DNA from: Escherichia coli
Lineage (GTDB): Bacteria > Pseudomonadota > Gammaproteobacteria > Enterobacterales > Enterobacteriaceae
Length of the DNA stretch: 64,000 nt
NCBI RefSeq assembly: GCF_003334785.1
Contig: NZ_QOWV01000003.1
Direction: 5' to 3' (one strand)
Below, piece by piece: positions 51,901 to 63,900 of this stretch; the stretch's first letter is position 1, and each line of letters starts with the position of its first letter. The position numbers were made by a program.

Positions 51901-54900
51901 AGAAACGAGATTAACGCCTCGCCGGTCCCCAGTTCCTGGATTGCCTTTTCGGTATCAAACGCCGGATTGGCCCGCATGGTTTGCGCCGCAGCTTTTACCG
52001 CTTTCTGATCTTTTGGCGTAAAAGCCCGCAAAGCGTGCTGAACGCGATTACCGAGCTGGCCGAGCACATTATCCGGAATATCAGACGGGTTTTGCGAAAC
52101 GAACCAGACGCCCACGCCTTTTGAGCGAATAAGCCTTATCACCTGCTCAATCTTATCCAGCAGTACCTGCGGTGCATCGTTAAACAGCAGATGTGCTTCG
52201 TCGAAGAAAAACACCAGTTTTGGCTTCTCCAGATCGCCCGCTTCCGGCAATTGTTCATACAACTCTGAAATCATCCACAGCAGGCTGGCGGCGTACAGTT
52301 TCGGCATCTGATAAAGCTTCTCGGCGCTGAGGATATTAATAACGCCTTTACCGTTGGCATCGGTGCGCATCAAGTCTTTGATATCCAGCATCGGCTCACC
52401 AAAGAAGTGTGCTGCGCCTTGCTGTTCCAGCGACAACAGCCCGCGCTGGATGGCACCAACCGATGCGCTACTGATATTTCCGTACTGATTCTGGAAAGAT
52501 TTGGCGTTATCGCCGATGTACTGGGTAATCGCCCGCAGATCTTTAAAGTCGAGCAGTAACAGCCCCTGATCGTCAGCAATTCGGAAGATGATATTCAGCA
52601 CGCCAGATTGCACATCGTTGAGATTCAACAGCCGCGCCAGCAACAGCGGCCCCAGATCCGAAACCGTCGCCCGCACCGGATGGCCTTTCTCGCCAAAGAT
52701 ATCCCACACCACCACCGGATTAGCATGCGGTTGCCAGTCATTTACGCCGATATTTTTAAGCCTTGCGAGCAGTTTTTCCGACGCCGTTCCTGCCTGCGCG
52801 ATACCGGTCAGATCGCCTTTCACATCGGCCATAAACACCGGCACGCCGATTTCCGATAGAGACTCCGCCAGTTTTTGCAGCGTGACAGTTTTACCCGTCC
52901 CCGTTGCGCCAGTAATCAGCCCGTGACGGTTAGCCATTCCCGGCAGTAAAAACAGTTCTGTGTCCGGCGTGCGGGCAATTAACAGGGGTTCGCTCATGAG
53001 ATTTCCTCCAGTTTCCTGCCTGGAGTATAGGCAACGGCTGTGCACTCTTCACCGCTAAATTCAGCAGATTGCGAGACGCCTTCCAAAGAGATTTAAGTGC
53101 CGGGCGACAGGCTCCCGGCAAAGGGATCAGAAGTCGGCTTTCAGGACCACGCGGTAGCGCGCTTTACCATCGCGTACATGCTGGATGGCGTCGTTAATTT
53201 TCGACATCGGGAACAGTTCGGTGGTCGGCGCAACCTTGCTGCGGGCGGCAAAACGCATCAGCTTACGCAGCTCATAAGGCGTGCCGGTAGCAGAACCAGA
53301 GATGCTGCGGTCGCCCGCAATTAACGTAAAGGCCGGAACAGACAGCGGCGTGAGAACCGCACCGACCGTATGGAAATTACCGCCATAGGTCAGCGCCTCA
53401 AAATAAGGCTGCCAGTCGAGGCTGACGTTCACAGTATTGATAATGAGATCAAACTGCCCCGACAGGGCTTTCAGTGCCTGCGGATCGCGGCTATTCACCA
53501 CTTTATCGGTACCCATCGCCAGTACTTCCTGCTCTTTCGCCGGATTAGAACTAAAGGCCGTCACCTCGCATCCCATTGCGTGCAGAAGTTTTATAGCGAT
53601 ATGCCCCAGCCCGCCAATACCAATTACCCCAACGCGGCTGGTAGCAGTGATATGGTGCATCAACAGTGGTTTAAAGACCGTGATACCGCCGCACAACAGC
53701 GGCCCGGCGGACTCGATATCAATATTTTCTGGCAGTGGAATCACCCATTGCCAGTCCGCACGCAACTTCTCGGCAAAGCCACCGCGATTCATAATCGTCG
53801 GCACCGCACCTTGCTCGCAGTTGATCTGATTACCGCTAATACAGGTGTCGCAGTGACCACAGCTACGCGCCGTCCAGCCAATCCCGACACGCTGACCGAC
53901 CTGCAAACCTTTATCCTGCGCGGCGCTCCCGAGTGCCACCACGCGCCCAATCACCTCATGCCCGGCAACCAGCGGATATTGTGAAAATCCCCATTCGTTA
54001 TCGATCATCGACAGATCGGAATGACAAATCCCGCAGTAATCCACCTGCACTTCAACATCTTGTGGCTTCAGCTCACCGGGATCGTACTCATAAACTTCCA
54101 GTTCGCCGCCCGCTTCTTTTGCGGCATAGCTTTTTATCATCGACATTTTTGGGTCCTTCTCTGGTGTTGTTTGGGAAGTGTAGAGCATGGCAGGGCGGGG
54201 TGCCTGGAGTGTGACAAAGGTTACATATCGCTGAGTGTAATGCTGAAAATTTCAGCACTTAGCGAGGTGGGTGCAAGCTGGCGCTTGCATGGTGGCGTGC
54301 GACAGGTATAATCCACAACGTTTTCCGCATACCTCTTCAGTGCCGAAGTGGCGAAATCGGTAGACGCAGTTGATTCAAAATCAACCGTAGAAATACGTGC
54401 CGGTTCGAGTCCGGCCTTCGGCACCAAGTCTTATCTAAGTCGTTGTTTTAAAACAATTTAATCCATAATTTTGCTTGAAATCGCGTAGCCCCTCTTACAA
54501 AAGGGTATACGAGGCGATGTCTCAGCGATATAAACTCTATCGTCGAACCAGCGGCATTTATGTTGTCCGCATTAGCATTCCCCAACGTTTTCGTCGATAC
54601 GCAGGACAGTGTGAGATTCACACTTCAACAGGCACTCACGATCTTCATGAAGCAAAGCAGAAGTCCGCGCTCCTGTTGGCGGTCTGGTATCAGACCTTAC
54701 AAGAGTATGAACAATTGGATTATCGAACTTTAAGTGACTGCGCCCCGCTGCTTGCTGGTGAGGGTATGATCTCGCTTTCTAACTTTGCTCAGTCAGTTGA
54801 GTTGCCTGTTGCGCAATTAATACAGGCGGTGATGAACCGTAATCTGCCCGTATTCTGGCTGGCGACGGGGCAGGCTGGCTTTTATGTTGCAGCGCTCTCT

Positions 54901-60900: not shown

Positions 60901-63900
60901 GGTGGCTCTAATGCGTCTCTGGATGCGATTGAGGTGCTGGCTAACGCTCTGAGCGTTGAGCCGTGGCAGTTGTTAGCGCCTGGCCCATCTGAAGATAACG
61001 ACTCGGAACTGTTGGTTCCATACGCAGCCGATGGTTCCTGTTTTCACCCCGGTTTGGCGAGCACCCGTGATGGTTCGTTTGGCGTAGGTGATAAAGCGGC
61101 TCAGAAGCGTTTTGGCACGTTTGCTGAAGCTCTTGAGTATCTTCGTAGCATGGAGACAGCAAAATGGCGTAGGCCTAATCCTAGCGGCAACTGGGGTATC
61201 GTATCAGCGGTTCGGTGGGACAAACTGAGAAAGTAGCTCAAGTGTAAGTTTATGAATTTTTATGCTGTATGGATGAACAGTATTCATTAGATGCTGATAG
61301 TCTTATGTTTCATCAGCCCTTTGTTTCTATAAGAGTGAATAAAACAGCAAAATGCGGGTGCGTTACGGTGGCGTTTCGCTTTGGCTCTTAATGGCTTAAT
61401 TCATATAAATAACATTGAGTTAAATAGTTATTCTGAACAAGGTCTGCCGGGGTCTAACTGGTTTCAAAATCCGAACGCAGTGGCGTTTATTCAACGTCCA
61501 CATAGCTGACAAATGTTCTTTCCTCCCGACTCGGCAGACCTCCAGAAACATTAAAAGGCAGGTATGGCACGTTGATGTTTTATGCCGCCACGAACACTCG
61601 GTTTGATTCCGTCCAGCGGATCAAACTTAATATGTAGCCCCTAGAACAAAAAGGTCCTACGATTGCTCTCTTAACAGCTAACAGGAACGTGATTACAGCA
61701 GGTTATAGAGACTTAGGTTCGAGTCCGGCCTTCGGCACCAAGTTACTAAATTCCTTACAATACAGTTGGTTAGACGATTAAATCTGTCTCTTTTGCCTGT
61801 AAGAAATGCTCTGTTATGTCCCTTGAAAAAGCCGCTGTGGTTGATAGTGGTAATTGGGATGTTAACTCATAGCGGCGTGTCGTTCCAAGCGTCAAACACG
61901 TACTGACTCAACTTGAAAGCTATGACGTAGCCACCGTCTCTAAACAATCCCAAAACTTTTAGTGCAGCGCATTTTAGCCCGATGCCCCCATTCTGTCGCC
62001 GTCGCGAGACGCCGCAGGGGATAAACAGGTTTATGGTGGTCACGGTACTTGCAGACCATATGCAAGCTCTGCCAGCGGTTCGGCCTCGCTCCCCTTGGGT
62101 ACATGGTCATCCTGATAAGCCTCACTAACTGACATAACCCTGATGAAGTCGCAAGAGGCTCCGCTTGTTGTCTTACCACCAACGGGGCTTTATGGATTCT
62201 ATTGCTTAATATATGATTGTATCAAACTTAGACTGCATAATTTAAACGAACATAACAATCAGGCAGGGGAAGAATGATAAAGCCATTTTCTGTGAGGTAT
62301 GGTCATGTTGACGTTAGAGAGCATGTCCAGCTGAATGATCTTAATTCTGATACACGCATGGCATTGTGGAATTGCTTATATCTTTTCCTTTGGACTAACA
62401 ATCGTCAAACTGCTACAGCAACAAAATGTGCGCAGTCTGTGTGGATATATTATCTAAATCAACCTGCGGATAATATTCCTCGTTATGAAAGTGGATACAA
62501 AAGTGATAAGACGTTGCTGACTGCTATCCGAGATTATATATATGGGGAAGCATGGTATTTGGTATATGATTTAATTGAGTTCATCATTGAGAGAACTAAT
62601 TCATATATTAATCTATCGAAGCATCTCAATTCCATCTTTAAAAAGCATGGCGTTGGTTATACCATAATAAATGGTTGTATTACTCCTATTTCAAATGATA
62701 ACGAAATTGAAAGTGTTCAGAACGCAGTTGATAATGGCACTGATTCATCGCGTAGCCATTTCGAAAGGGCGTTACAACTAATGACGGATAGAGAGCAGCC
62801 AGACTACAGAAACTCGATTAAAGAGTCTATCTCTGCAATTGAATCTTTATGCAGGAAAATCACGGGCAATGATAAAGGAACCTTGGGGGCTTGTCTTAAA
62901 GCTATAGAGGAAAAAGGATATATACACTCTGCAATGAAAGGCGCTTTTAGTCAGCTCTATGGTTATACAAGTGATCAGGGTGGAATACGTCATGCGCTAA
63001 CAGAAGAAGATGTAAATCCTACCTTAGCTGAAGCTAAATTTATGTTAGTCACTTGCAGTGCGTTCAGTAATTATCTGTTGTCAAAAATAAGTGATTAATT
63101 ACAGGTTTATAGTTACGAGTGGGTTAGTTACCCACTCCCTTTAAAATTATTCACCAGACTCTAATCTTTTTTCTCTTTTCTCATCTCTCCTTTTTATTGC
63201 CAAATCGTGTTGCTCTTGCAGATACGTGCGTTCTTCGTTTCTATCGCTTGAAGTATATACGTCTGCTTTTACTTTTTTAGCTCCTTGTGCAATAGGTTTC
63301 CAATCCTCTCTTATACCTTTAATTTGTTCTGCAATTTGCGTCAATGGGCTTCTCGCTCCTAGATAACTTATTCCTTCAAATGTCGCCATGTCATACACAT
63401 ATTCATTTGTTTCTCTATCGTTTGATTTAGGTTTGCTTGCCCAGCTTATATTAATATTATAAATTTGATCTTTGATTTGTTCATACTTACAGAGATTGCT
63501 GGTAAGTGATTGCCCATTTTTTAACACGCTTACCTTACTAAACGGAATCTCACTTTTTTCTCTATGCTCCGCATTTACTAGTGGAGGATCAAACACAACC
63601 TCAACATTATAGGCAGGTGCGTTCCCTGTATTAGCAATGTTAATATCAAAGTAAAAAGCGGCCCAAGGGTTTGGCTCAAGTGTTACAACTATATGGGGTT
63701 GAGCTGATGCGTCAACCATTCTTTTTGTCTCGTCTGCTCTGAAGTGGTGAAGTGGTTTACTGAATTTGGCCACCTGAACAGAGGTGATATGCTCACCTCA
63801 GAACAACACAGGTGCTCCAATGAAAAAAAGAAATTTTAGCGCAGAGTTTAAACGCGAATCCGCTCAACTGGTTGTTGACCAGACATACACGGTGGCAGAT

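What the first reader, a model, noticed from the sequence alone, without database searches (positions are those of the whole stretch)
54342..61743. A ~7.3 kb integrase-bearing island inserted at leuX, bounded by a perfect 28-bp direct repeat
The intact tRNA-Leu gene is followed 90 bp later by a 636-aa tyrosine integrase, and the last 28 nt of the tRNA region recur exactly at 61716-61743 with no other tRNA similarity. This is the classic attL/attR signature of a tRNA-targeting element. The cargo matches neither K-12 (intB/P4-like remnant) nor P4-type satellites (no psu, sid, delta or alpha-like genes) and looks AT-richer than the core. It mixes two recombinases, decayed genes and candidate defence genes, suggesting a decaying integrative element or prophage immunity-region remnant.
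Basis: partly seen in the sequence, partly recalled or inferred. Interest (0 to 1): 0.7.

Follow-up and report, generated by a model that had tools for sequence, protein, structure and literature searches.

The report
Small modular defence islet at leuX
This is a genuine, precisely inserted 7.3-kb mobile islet at the leuX tRNA gene; it belongs to a previously undescribed but widespread family of small elements that carry anti-phage genes and an unexplained, almost invariant 450-base non-coding stretch.

Summary
An intact tRNA-Leu(CAA) gene is followed by a 636-aa tyrosine integrase, and an exact 28-bp repeat bounds a 7,314-bp insertion. The same island is at least 99.9% identical in 348 of 5,426 complete E. 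coli genomes, including Nissle 1917 and ATCC 25922. The reconstructed empty site is contiguous in 223 other genomes.

The island is not a decaying remnant or a prophage immunity region. Having two recombinases is the conserved design of a family found in Escherichia, Yersinia, Enterobacter, Cronobacter, Pantoea, Citrobacter and Pseudomonas.

- **Backbone:** a large DUF6538-type integrase, a resolvase with its own res-like site, and an XRE regulator.
- **Cargo:** two variable slots hold defence genes. Here the gene is a Swarozyc-like DUF4062 TIR-like NADase. Siblings carry Shedu, PDC-S06 and others.
- **Integrase module:** it is swapped between tRNA-Leu, tRNA-Gly and tRNA-Thr targets.
- **O157:H7:** a sibling element heads O-island 172.

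One slot holds a roughly 450-nt non-coding block that is 97-99% identical among elements whose genes are only 65-85% identical. It has no Rfam match, and its function is unknown.

No transfer or replication genes and no circular junction were found, so current mobility is unproven. I rate it a new variant of a known kind, of moderate interest.

The parts
54342..54426 (+). leuX, an intact tRNA-Leu(CAA) gene. Its 3' end is the integration target.
   Evidence: ARAGORN; Rfam tRNA, 59 bits.
54402..54429 (.). attL core: a 28-bp exact repeat made of the last 25 nt of the tRNA plus AGT.
   Evidence: In Yersinia siblings attL keeps the host T at position 8 and attR keeps the element's G, which places the crossover in the 3' 17 bp.
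54485..54512 (+). Conserved P' arm motif GTAGCCCCTCTTACAAAAGGGTATACGA just upstream of the integrase ATG. It is a candidate arm-type integrase site or int operator.
   Evidence: Nearly invariant in 10 elements from 5 genera. A related motif lies in the right arm. Binding is inferred, not shown.
54517..56427 (+). Tyrosine integrase, 636 aa: DUF6538 N-terminal domain, a roughly 200-aa insert, a SAM-like domain and a catalytic domain.
   Evidence: Pfam; PHROG 1 integrase; catalytic-type motifs R441, H551-x-x-R554, H577 and Y588 read from the sequence; homologs at 65-96% identity, always next to tRNA-Leu(CAA).
56560..56892 (-). NIPSNAP-family gene (110 aa), frequent in slot 1 of siblings.
   Evidence: RefSeq annotation; 80% aa identity in the Yersinia and Enterobacter elements.
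57205..57369 (.). 'Block A', a conserved sequence of about 100-165 bp that recurs at cargo-cassette boundaries of the family, with up to two copies per element. Its role is unknown.
   Evidence: nhmmer hits; alignment A7 shows no consensus RNA structure; no codon periodicity.
57420..57890 (+). 'Block B', an ultraconserved non-coding block. The core at about 57489-57752 is almost invariant. Hairpins lie at 57753-57766 and 57774-57809, with a terminator-like hairpin at 57866-57888. It is a candidate plus-strand RNA or a cis-acting DNA site.
   Evidence: Mean pairwise identity is 93-99% (mostly 97-99%) in 10 elements whose neighbouring genes are 65-85% identical. It has 1-nt indels and no ORF over 50 aa. 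No Rfam hit at E<=1. It is single-copy and found only inside these elements. It is absent from phages and plasmids. Compensatory changes occur in 3 hairpins, and G-U changes favour the + strand.
57898..58364 (-). DUF1643 pseudogene (frameshifted), intact in O157:H7 and plasmid relatives.
   Evidence: RefSeq note 'frameshifted'; PHROG 3230.
58423..58536 (.). res-like site. It comprises the 12+2+12 palindrome GCCAACAAACG-AC-CGTTTTCTGGCA (58423-47) and two further CGTTTTCTGGCAG-type subsites (58471-503, 58523-36), overlapping the recombinase promoter region.
   Evidence: Conserved from E. coli to Pseudomonas in alignment A6; coordinates. Function is inferred by analogy with Tn3/gamma-delta res.
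58557..59117 (+). Small serine recombinase (186 aa), resolvase/invertase type.
   Evidence: Best PDB match is gamma-delta resolvase, E=1e-25, full length, with Ser10 present; NCBIfam and PHROG hits; 80-93% identical across the family.
59131..59976 (+). DUF4062 TIR-like protein (281 aa) with a C-terminal winged-helix-like domain. It is a Swarozyc-like candidate abortive-infection NADase and is the cargo of slot 2.
   Evidence: Pfam DUF4062; PADLOC PDC-S60 N-terminal match; invariant E97/E98 in 26 homologs; AF2 model with pLDDT 79; TIR and NDT fold matches; preprint 10.64898/2026.05.01.722283. Absent from the plasmid copies of the module.
60037..60531 (-). Membrane protein (164 aa), a common slot-2 or backbone gene.
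   Evidence: RefSeq; PHROG 20749, E=1e-102; 58-88% identical in siblings and plasmids.
60772..61236 (+). XRE-family HTH regulator (154 aa) with an extra C-terminal domain. It is a backbone gene.
   Evidence: NCBIfam, PADLOC and PHROG HTH hits; 68-99% identical in all siblings.
61634..61704 (+). P arm: the motif GTAGCCCCTAGAACAAAAAGGTCCTACGA (61634-62) and the core-proximal conserved CAGCAGGTT (61696-704).
   Evidence: Right-end alignment of 7 elements; coordinates.
61716..61743 (.). attR core, the second copy of the 28-bp repeat.
   Evidence: The sequence to its right directly follows leuX in 223 genomes that lack the island.

Best explanation
The segment 54430-61715, together with one copy of the 28-bp core, is a discrete integrative islet.

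Shown: it entered by site-specific recombination between an element-borne attP and the 3' end of leuX. This regenerated an intact tRNA and duplicated the core.

Shown by comparison: it belongs to a modular family with four components.
1. An exchangeable integration module: a DUF6538-type large tyrosine integrase with its arm motifs. Variants target tRNA-Leu(CAA), tRNA-Gly(CCC) or tRNA-Thr(CGT).
2. A conserved maintenance and regulation module that is also found on MOBH plasmids: a res-like site, a gamma-delta-type resolvase and an XRE regulator, often with DUF1643 and a small membrane protein.
3. Two cargo slots.
4. In many members, an ultraconserved non-coding block.

Inferred: the integrase catalyses integration and possibly excision. 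The resolvase acts on res to resolve dimers or cointegrates of a circular or plasmid-borne form and to autoregulate its own expression. The HTH protein controls expression. The cargo gives the host a benefit against phage; here that cargo is a Swarozyc-like DUF4062 NADase expected to abort infection by NAD+ depletion.

The element has no transfer or replication genes. It probably spreads as a hitchhiker, through a helper plasmid or phage, or by recombination of flanking DNA. This copy has an intact integrase, resolvase, regulator and defence gene, and one decayed gene (DUF1643).
For: - **Insertion:** the exact repeat and intact tRNA, and the empty site contiguous at 99.8-100% identity in 223 genomes.
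- **Recent horizontal spread:** 1 SNP in 7.4 kb of island against 10.9 SNPs/kb in the adjacent core, comparing the window with Nissle 1917. The island is at least 99.9% identical in 348 genomes from humans, pigs, poultry and dogs.
- **Site-specific rather than homologous entry:** Yersinia siblings keep the host base in attL and the element base in attR.
- **Family:** int, serine recombinase and HTH occur in the same order in every related element read, from Yersinia, Enterobacter, Cronobacter, Pantoea, O157:H7, Citrobacter, Pluralibacter, Kosakonia, Ewingella and Pseudomonas. Each complete element is bounded by tRNA-end repeats and is 7.3-11 kb long.
- **Swapped integrases:** integrases are only 29-45% identical where the resolvase is 71-92% and the HTH 63-94% identical (84-92% and 79-94% within Enterobacterales).
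- **res and resolvase:**
- **Plasmid copy of the module:**
- **Defence cargo:** DUF4062/Swarozyc-like here. Siblings carry Shedu, PDC-S06, PDC-S49 and PDC-M18A. leuX is defence hotspot #37, with 462 of 475 islands carrying defence genes.
Against: - No excisionase, relaxase, oriT, replication initiator or packaging gene was recognised.
- No attP (circular or tandem) junction was found in any fetched locus or in 5,426 complete E. coli genomes.
- Excision of the O157 Sakai SpLE elements was not detected by others. However, that test used the whole 34-kb SpLE6, the result was given as 'data not shown', and I did not verify that SpLE6 is the leuX island (PMC2669165).
- The region right of attR is as SNP-poor as the island. 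Some spread may therefore be by homologous recombination of a larger block.
- The roles of the resolvase, HTH, membrane protein, DUF1643 and both non-coding blocks are inferred only.
- Equivalence of our E97 with the catalytic E97 of KpSwz was not checked by direct alignment.
Confidence: 0.75

Rival explanations
1. The island is a decaying integrative element or prophage immunity-region remnant whose two recombinases and odd genes are leftovers of a larger element.
For: DUF1643 is frameshifted. About 1 kb has no ORF. Relative to plasmid pCP53-92k and Enterobacter siblings, the island lacks about 0.8-1 kb segments. There is an XRE repressor-like gene.
Against: There is no DNA or structural-gene similarity to any of 50,697 phages or to IMG/VR. 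The same compact architecture of 7.3-11 kb, bounded by att repeats, recurs in at least seven genera. The integrase, resolvase, HTH and DUF4062 genes are intact. The ORF-free stretch is the most conserved part of the island.
Confidence: 0.07
2. The island is an integrative plasmid-like episome. After excision the circle replicates from a host-primed origin, which would be the ultraconserved block B, or the 338-aa protein cassette in other members. The resolvase/res pair then serves as a multimer-resolution system, as on plasmids.
For: A conserved resolvase with its own res makes most sense for a replicating circle. The same module sits on real plasmids. Block B is a long non-coding region with AT-rich stretches and conserved hairpins. 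It alternates with a 338-aa protein of unknown function in the same slot.
Against: Block B is absent from all 72,556 PLSDB plasmids. No episomal copy or attP junction exists in 5,426 complete genomes. The 338-aa protein matches no Rep family. Several family members have neither cassette. There is no RNAI/ColE1-type Rfam hit.
Confidence: 0.12
3. The island is an integrative mobilizable element. It excises and is transferred by a conjugative helper, for example MOBH plasmids, through a cryptic oriT that could be block B, block A or the right arm.
For: The element is small, non-autonomous and integrase-bearing, with inter-genus spread. The backbone module is 85-92% identical to DNA lying a few kb from mobI/mobH on IncHI1B/MOBH plasmids. 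IMEs are common defence carriers in E. coli hotspots (PMC10121019).
Against: No relaxase or mob gene is present. Block B has no similarity to any plasmid, so it does not mimic a known oriT. No circular junction was found.
Confidence: 0.2
4. The island is a fixed passenger. The integrase no longer functions, or works only rarely. The island's present distribution in E. coli comes from vertical descent plus homologous recombination or transduction of the whole leuX region.
For: The 2.2 kb right of attR is as SNP-poor as the island between strains whose left flank differs by 0.3-1.1%. No attP junctions were found. No excision of O157 SpLEs was seen.
Against: 223 genomes have the identical right flank joined precisely to leuX without the island. 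The island therefore came or went on its own, at the core. The integrase ORF is intact and identical in hundreds of genomes. Inter-genus copies with chimeric att cores show integrase-type entry.
Confidence: 0.3

Closest known systems
P4-type integrase islands at leuX (K-12 KpLE2/intB, PAI II-536, P4-like satellites)
   Same: Same target (the 3' end of leuX), flanking direct repeats, and an integrase gene next to the tRNA in the same orientation. Both types sit in defence hotspot #37. Members of this family often lie in tandem just upstream of such P4-type islands.
   Different: The integrase has DUF6538, an insert, a SAM-like domain and a catalytic domain in 636 aa. It lacks the Arm-DNA-bind_3/Phage_int_M architecture. 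There are no psu, sid, delta or alpha genes and no phage DNA similarity. The island is only 7.3 kb.
Integrative mobilizable elements and mobilizable genomic islands (e.g. MGIs of SXT/IncC helpers, SGI1)
   Same: They are small integrase-bearing elements without conjugation machinery and with variable cargo that includes defence genes. SGI1 also carries a resolvase (from my own knowledge). DNA is shared with MOBH plasmids.
   Different: No relaxase, mobI, oriT mimic or replication gene was recognised. Mobilisation is untested.
Tn3/gamma-delta res-resolvase and plasmid multimer-resolution systems
   Same: A 186-aa serine recombinase aligns full-length to gamma-delta resolvase and has Ser10. A conserved multi-subsite region, including a 12+2+12 palindrome, lies directly upstream of its gene.
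   Different: There is no Tn3 transposase and there are no terminal inverted repeats. Only one res copy is present per chromosome, and it is embedded in an integrase-driven element. Whether the enzyme is a resolvase or an invertase was not resolved: Gin scores nearly as well, and no inversion variants were seen.
Swarozyc (DUF4062 TIR-like NADase defence; preprint 10.64898/2026.05.01.722283) and Evangelion (10.64898/2026.06.25.731849)
   Same: It is a single gene of about 280 aa with an N-terminal DUF4062 TIR-like domain and an invariant Glu at 97/98, a helical stalk and a C-terminal winged-helix-like domain. It is located in a defence island.
   Different: Activity is untested.
O-island 172 / SpLE6 of E. 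coli O157:H7
   Same: The first 8.9 kb of the O157:H7 leuX island is a sibling of this islet. The integrase is about 85% identical at the DNA level, and the same NIPSNAP, block A/B, DUF1643, res-resolvase and HTH backbone is present.
   Different: The slot-2 cargo differs (438-aa and 257-aa proteins instead of DUF4062). DUF1643 is intact and there is an extra DUF4160 gene. The published work on OI-172 that I read deals with Zorya, Druantia, ARMADA and a helicase, not with this sub-element. The equation of SpLE6 with this leuX island rests on my own knowledge and was not checked.

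Membership tests
tRNA-integrating, tyrosine-integrase genomic island | Inserted at the 3' end of a tRNA gene, which remains intact | tested here: met
   tRNA-Leu(CAA) at 54342-54426 is intact, and the repeat starts inside it.
tRNA-integrating, tyrosine-integrase genomic island | Flanking direct repeats (att core), with an uninterrupted empty site in relatives | tested here: met
   Exact 28-bp repeat. The empty junction is contiguous in 223 complete genomes.
tRNA-integrating, tyrosine-integrase genomic island | Adjacent tyrosine recombinase with catalytic R-H-x-x-R-H-Y residues | tested here: met
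   Pfam Phage_integrase over residues 436-582. The motifs GARVNE (R441), HSFRHS (551-554), LLGHV (H577) and VRYSKD (Y588) were located. Assignment to catalytic roles is by position and pattern, not by structure.
tRNA-integrating, tyrosine-integrase genomic island | Excision to a circular form (attP) and a repaired attB | tested here: inconclusive
   There is no attP junction in the fetched loci or in 5,426 complete genomes. Assemblies would rarely capture a rare circle, so PCR is needed.
P4-type satellite / P4-like integrase island | P4-type integrase (Arm-DNA-bind_3 + Phage_int_M) and the psu, sid, delta and alpha genes | tested here: not met
   The domains are DUF6538, SAM_5 and Phage_integrase. 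No such genes appear in the NCBIfam or PHROG scans. There is no phage DNA match.
Prophage remnant / immunity region | Homology to phage structural, replication, lysis or immunity modules | tested here: not met
   There is no match in 50,697 phage genomes, in near or distant mode. PHROG hits are limited to integrase, invertase, generic HTH and unknown families.
Integrative mobilizable element | Relaxase and/or oriT recognised by a helper | tested here: not met
   No relaxase or mob family hit. The non-coding blocks have no plasmid oriT similarity. A cryptic oriT cannot be excluded computationally.
Tn3-type res/resolvase system | Small serine recombinase with a catalytic Ser and a C-terminal HTH | tested here: met
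   Full-length alignment to gamma-delta resolvase, E=1e-25, with the motif YGRVSTSQQ.
Tn3-type res/resolvase system | Multi-subsite res immediately upstream of the recombinase gene | tested here: met
   A conserved 26-bp palindrome plus two further repeat-bearing subsites at 58423-58536, conserved as far as Pseudomonas. Binding and recombination are not testable here.
Tn3-type res/resolvase system | Tn3-family transposase and terminal inverted repeats | tested here: not met
   No transposase ORF lies in 54430-61715.
Swarozyc (DUF4062 NADase defence) | DUF4062 TIR-like domain | tested here: met
   Pfam PF13271, E=3e-4. PADLOC PDC-S60 N-terminal match, E=6e-27. TIR and NDT fold matches of the AF2 model.
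Swarozyc (DUF4062 NADase defence) | Catalytic Glu (E97 in KpSwz) | tested here: inconclusive
   E97 and E98 are invariant in 26 homologs.
Swarozyc (DUF4062 NADase defence) | C-terminal auxiliary domain with a winged-helix core | tested here: inconclusive
   The model shows a helix/beta-hairpin domain at 197-280. There is a weak HTH_45 hit at 247-281, E=0.22. The paper describes an HTH/winged-helix AUX core.
Swarozyc (DUF4062 NADase defence) | Portal-triggered NAD+ depletion and phage protection | not testable with these tools
   This requires phage challenge and NADase assays.

The most novel reading that the evidence does not exclude
The roughly 450-nt ultraconserved non-coding block (window about 57420-57890) is a new functional RNA transcribed from the + strand and ending at the 57866-57888 hairpin, or else a cis-acting DNA site. 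It would be a portable module of this islet family, for example a regulator or trigger RNA linked to DUF1643, an origin, or a transfer or packaging signal. The recurrent block A would mark the boundaries at which cargo cassettes are exchanged. If so, the family would be a defined, modular cassette platform for defence genes with an RNA component, rather than just another tRNA island.
Probability: 0.4. Interest if true: 0.7.

Novelty: new variant of a known kind. Interest (0 to 1): 0.5.

Why it matters
leuX is among the busiest defence hotspots in E. coli, yet the small element at its head has not been singled out in the papers I could search. That element is present in the probiotic Nissle 1917, the reference strain ATCC 25922, and (as a sibling) all the O157:H7 genomes listed in the searches.

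Recognising it as a modular family has four practical consequences.
1. It gives a rule for delimiting defence cargo at tRNA-Leu, tRNA-Gly and tRNA-Thr sites across Enterobacterales and Pseudomonas.
2. It identifies a Swarozyc-like NADase in widely used strains.
3. It offers a compact set of integrases with different tRNA specificities, each with defined 25-28-bp cores.
4. It exposes a strikingly conserved non-coding sequence whose function can be tested directly in tractable strains.

Tried and rejected
- **Invertible-segment idea:** the 12-bp inverted repeat at 59105/60492 flanking the DUF4062 and membrane genes is within chance expectation. All 348 full-length copies are collinear in one piece. 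Rejected.
- **Third repeat copy at 61600-61627 as a tRNA relic:** it is a simple hairpin in the conserved right arm. Rejected.
- **Block B as a repeat, IS or MITE:** it is single-copy per genome. Rejected.
- **Block B as a phage cos/pac or plasmid oriT mimic:** no phage, IMG/VR or plasmid similarity. Not supported.
- **Block B as a known RNA:** no Rfam hit at E<=1.
- **Block B as coding:** there are 1-nt indels and no third-position bias. Rejected.
- **Global RNA fold of block B:** the RNAalifold covariation term is about 0 because the core does not vary. Single-sequence z-scores are -3.1 on the + strand and -2.3 on the - strand. Only the local hairpins are supported.
- **Block A as a structured RNA or as the C-terminus of a minus-strand gene:** no consensus structure. 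An apparent conserved peptide shows no codon periodicity and carries an in-frame stop in most copies. Left open as a DNA-level element.
- **The 338-aa alternative cassette as a Rep protein:** no Pfam, PHROG or PDB match.
- **PDB sequence searches:** uninformative for the integrase, DUF1643 and DUF4062 proteins.
- **Literature:** no paper mentions DUF6538. The Nissle and OI-172 papers I read do not describe this sub-element.

Full report
**1.

The window has a single tRNA, tRNA-Leu(CAA), at 54342-54426 (Rfam). The 28-mer GGTTCGAGTCCGGCCTTCGGCACCAAGT occurs exactly twice, at 54402-54429 and 61716-61743. Identity does not extend by even one base on either side.

A 636-aa ORF at 54517-56427 starts 90 bp after the tRNA. 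It carries DUF6538, a SAM-like domain and a Phage_integrase domain. GC content falls from 51-56% in the left flank to 45-50% in the island, and to 37-43% over the DUF4062 gene.

**2. It is a precise insertion.**

The 7.5-kb query is 100% covered at about 100% identity in 348 of 5,426 complete E. coli genomes. These include Nissle 1917, ATCC 25922, ML35 and an O157:H16 strain, from human, pig, poultry and dog sources.

I built a synthetic empty site consisting of the left flank, one repeat and the right flank. It is contiguous at 99.8-100% identity in 223 other genomes, including E. coli C, S88 and ATCC 11775. The island has therefore come or gone exactly at the repeat.

Between the window and Nissle 1917, the left core flank differs at 10.9 sites per kb, but the island differs at 1 site in 7,402. 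The 2.2 kb to the right is equally clean. This means recent horizontal spread, some of it possibly within a larger recombined block.

**3. Gene content** (RefSeq annotation of identical copies; family scans).

- Integrase, 54517-56427 (+).
- NIPSNAP, 56560-56892 (-).
- About 1 kb with no ORF.
- DUF1643 pseudogene, 57898-58364 (-).
- Serine recombinase, 58557-59117 (+).
- DUF4062 protein, 59131-59976 (+).
- Membrane protein, 60037-60531 (-).
- XRE-type HTH, 60772-61236 (+).

There is no similarity to any phage genome. Right of attR lie an AbiJ-NTD4/PDC-S32 gene, a DUF8453 gene, IS fragments and, in the matching genomes, the fec operon. This is an older KpLE2-like island that is also present in the empty-site genomes.

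**4. The two recombinases are a conserved design, not debris.**

The integrase has homologs at 65-96% identity in Enterobacter, Cronobacter, Yersinia, Pectobacterium and Pantoea. In every locus read, the integrase follows tRNA-Leu(CAA). In each locus that extends far enough, it is followed within 2.5-8 kb by a resolvase-family gene of 184-222 aa, and in each complete element by an HTH gene of about 154 aa. Each such element is closed by a second copy of the tRNA 3' end and measures 7.3-11 kb.

In E. coli, 602 genomes carry this integrase family. Of these, 242 are at 80-90% identity and are mainly O157:H7. There, an 8.9-kb sibling heads the leuX island, lying ahead of a truncated P4-type integrase and Zorya II.

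I then searched 100,044 species genomes with the serine recombinase. The order int, resolvase, HTH also holds in Kosakonia, Citrobacter, Yersinia ruckeri, Ewingella, Pluralibacter, Mangrovibacter and Pseudomonas. In these the integrase is only 29-45% identical to ours, apart from Ewingella's leuX-type integrase at 67%. The resolvase stays at 71-92% and the HTH at 63-94% (84-92% and 79-94% within Enterobacterales). Those elements sit at tRNA-Gly(CCC) or tRNA-Thr(CGT). The integration module is therefore exchangeable on a conserved backbone.

**5. Att anatomy.**

The identical core is 25 bp (GGTTCGAGTCCGGCCTTCGGCACCA) in most members and 28 bp here.

Yersinia elements L011 and L012 have the host's T at core position 8 in attL and the element's G in attR. 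This maps strand exchange to the 3' 17 bp and argues for site-specific entry from a foreign donor.

A motif GTAGCCCC-N-ACAAAAGGGTATACGA is nearly invariant just upstream of the integrase ATG. A related doublet lies 55-85 bp left of attR, and AGCAGGTT lies 12-20 bp left of the core. These are candidate arm and core sites, which is an inference.

Catalytic-type motifs are present in the integrase.

**6. The resolvase has its own site.**

The protein aligns full-length to gamma-delta/Tn3 resolvase (E=1e-25) and has the catalytic Ser. Gin invertase scores nearly as well.

Directly upstream, 58423-58536 holds a 12+2+12 palindrome (GCCAACAAACG-AC-CGTTTTCTGGCA) and two more CGTTTTCTGGCAG-type subsites. 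This region is conserved from E. coli to Pseudomonas while the surrounding sequence is not. That is the layout of a res site overlapping the resolvase promoter.

The block DUF1643, res-resolvase, membrane protein and HTH is also found at 85-92% identity on IncHI1B/MOBH plasmids a few kb from mobI/mobH. The plasmid copies lack the DUF4062 gene. The backbone is thus a plasmid-type maintenance module. A resolvase implies a circular, dimer-forming or cointegrate stage. No such stage is visible: there is no attP junction in the fetched loci or in 5,426 genomes.

**7. Cargo.**

Slot 1 lies between the integrase and the resolvase, and slot 2 between the resolvase and the HTH. Both vary among members.

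Here slot 2 holds a 281-aa DUF4062 protein. The evidence for its identity is as follows.
- It matches the N-terminal domain of PADLOC candidate PDC-S60.
- It belongs to a family of more than 2,000 proteins of about 282 aa, with E97 and E98 invariant in the 26 aligned.
- An AlphaFold model (pLDDT 79) shows a flavodoxin-like alpha/beta domain, a helical stalk and a C-terminal helix/beta-hairpin domain. Its fold neighbours include plant TIR domains and nucleoside 2-deoxyribosyltransferase.

A 2026 preprint shows that DUF4062 proteins with such auxiliary domains ('Swarozyc') are portal-activated TIR-like NADases. They cause abortive infection and have a catalytic E97. A second preprint names related plasmid systems Evangelion.

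Sibling elements carry Shedu, PDC-S06 (an AAA_13 ATPase), PDC-S49 and PDC-M18A. leuX is hotspot #37 of the E. coli defence-island survey, where 462 of 475 islands carry defence genes.

**8. The unexplained part.**

The ORF-free kilobase is the best-conserved DNA in the island.

*Block B.* Window 57129-57981 is 89.6% identical to a Yersinia element whose integrase, resolvase and HTH genes are only 74-82% identical. In ten elements, mean pairwise identity is 93-99% (mostly 97-99%) over 57420-57920, against 65-85% for the flanking DUF1643 and resolvase genes. A metagenome scan added variants down to 82% overall identity, yet 57489-57752 remains almost invariant.

The block has several further properties.
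- It has single-base indels, no ORF over 50 aa and no codon bias.
- It is single-copy and found only inside these elements.
- It has no Rfam, phage, IMG/VR or plasmid match.
- Three hairpins at its 3' end show compensatory changes: 4 pairs and 8 cells, with 0 of 500 shuffles reaching this.
- One-sided changes are G-U compatible on the + strand in 7 cases. Only 2 of the unpaired cells would be G-U on the - strand.
- A global fold is not supported, because the core does not vary.

In other members the same slot holds an unannotated 338-aa protein instead.

*Block A.* A second conserved sequence at 57205-57369 recurs at cassette boundaries, sometimes twice per element, and also in small Klebsiella plasmids. 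It shows no RNA structure.

**9. Verdict.**

The finding is real, and its basic reading as a leuX-integrated, integrase-bearing element is right. The 'decaying remnant or prophage immunity region' reading is not.

It is best described as a member of an undescribed modular family of small tRNA-integrating islets. The family combines an exchangeable DUF6538-type integrase with a plasmid-type res-resolvase/HTH backbone and defence cargo. This copy carries a Swarozyc-like NADase.

Autonomy is unlikely, and current mobility is unproven. Earlier work found no excision of O157 SpLE elements, but it tested other boundaries.

No paper in the searchable library mentions DUF6538 or this sub-element. The kind of element is known; the architecture and the ultraconserved non-coding block are new. 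Interest is moderate.

Noticed in passing
window 61744-64000: Immediately right of attR lies an older island. It holds an AbiJ-NTD4 protein (62274-63098; PADLOC PDC-S32, E=6e-104), a DUF8453 protein (63147-63773, minus strand; PHROG 11802) and an IS3-family transposase fragment from 63784. In matching genomes IS30 and the fec operon follow. The first 245 bp of this region abut leuX directly in the 223 'empty-site' genomes.
   Followed up: partly
L003 (plasmid pCP53-92k, NZ_CP033095.1) 5554-9442: An IncY plasmid carries the same integrase and NIPSNAP gene at about 98-99% identity. They are preceded by a 46-bp fragment of the leuX 3' end, which is 18 bp more of the tRNA than the island's own repeat. 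A second, divergently oriented tyrosine recombinase sits upstream. This looks like a captured chromosomal attL junction from a tandem leuX array.
   Followed up: partly
L006/L007 (Yersinia enterocolitica) 9829-9913 and 20755-20839; L032 (Ewingella) 5016-5100 and 15304-15388: In these siblings the element is flanked by two complete tRNA-Leu(CAA) genes rather than a 25-bp repeat. In L006 the duplication includes promoter-like upstream sequence. Some family members therefore carry a full replacement tRNA in attP.
   Followed up: partly
L020 (E. coli 16843, NZ_CP113503.1) 3482-13354: A sibling element with a different 650-aa integrase sits at tRNA-Gly(CCC), between actS and yqeG. It carries Shedu together with the same block A/B, resolvase, DUF4062-like protein, membrane protein and HTH. 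One species therefore hosts the backbone at two tRNA sites.
   Followed up: yes
window 57205-57320; L008 14148-14259 and 18023-18186; L027 5399-5571 and 7282-7411; L101 (6.7-kb Klebsiella plasmid) 2050-2123: Block A has the form TATAAGGA...GAAATTTTCGGACGCAATGCCTGAGAGGGG...AAACCTAGG...TCCACTTTT. It recurs in one orientation between cargo cassettes and upstream of a 190-aa/DUF4468 gene pair. It could be a shared promoter or operator, or a cassette-junction sequence.
   Followed up: partly
L021 (JAIJJM010000048.1, labelled 'MAG: Collinsella sp.'): This 9.9-kb contig is 100% identical to the E. coli island plus its AbiJ flank. It is almost certainly a mis-binned E. coli contig in an actinobacterial MAG. 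Similar oddly labelled hits (Martelella, Chryseobacterium, Bacillota MAG) carry the enterobacterial resolvase at 84-90% identity.
   Followed up: no
window 61601-61626: A perfect 7-bp-stem hairpin, GTTTGAT-N12-ATCAAAC, lies in the conserved right arm. It accounts for the weak (68%) third match to the tRNA T-arm repeat. It is conserved in the E. kobei sibling.
   Followed up: partly
window 59109-60033 versus L004 7243-7650: The DUF4062 gene occupies a sharply bounded replacement. Similarity to the plasmid module stops 9 bp before the resolvase stop codon and resumes at the membrane-gene stop codon. The plasmids have an unrelated 407 bp in that position.
   Followed up: partly
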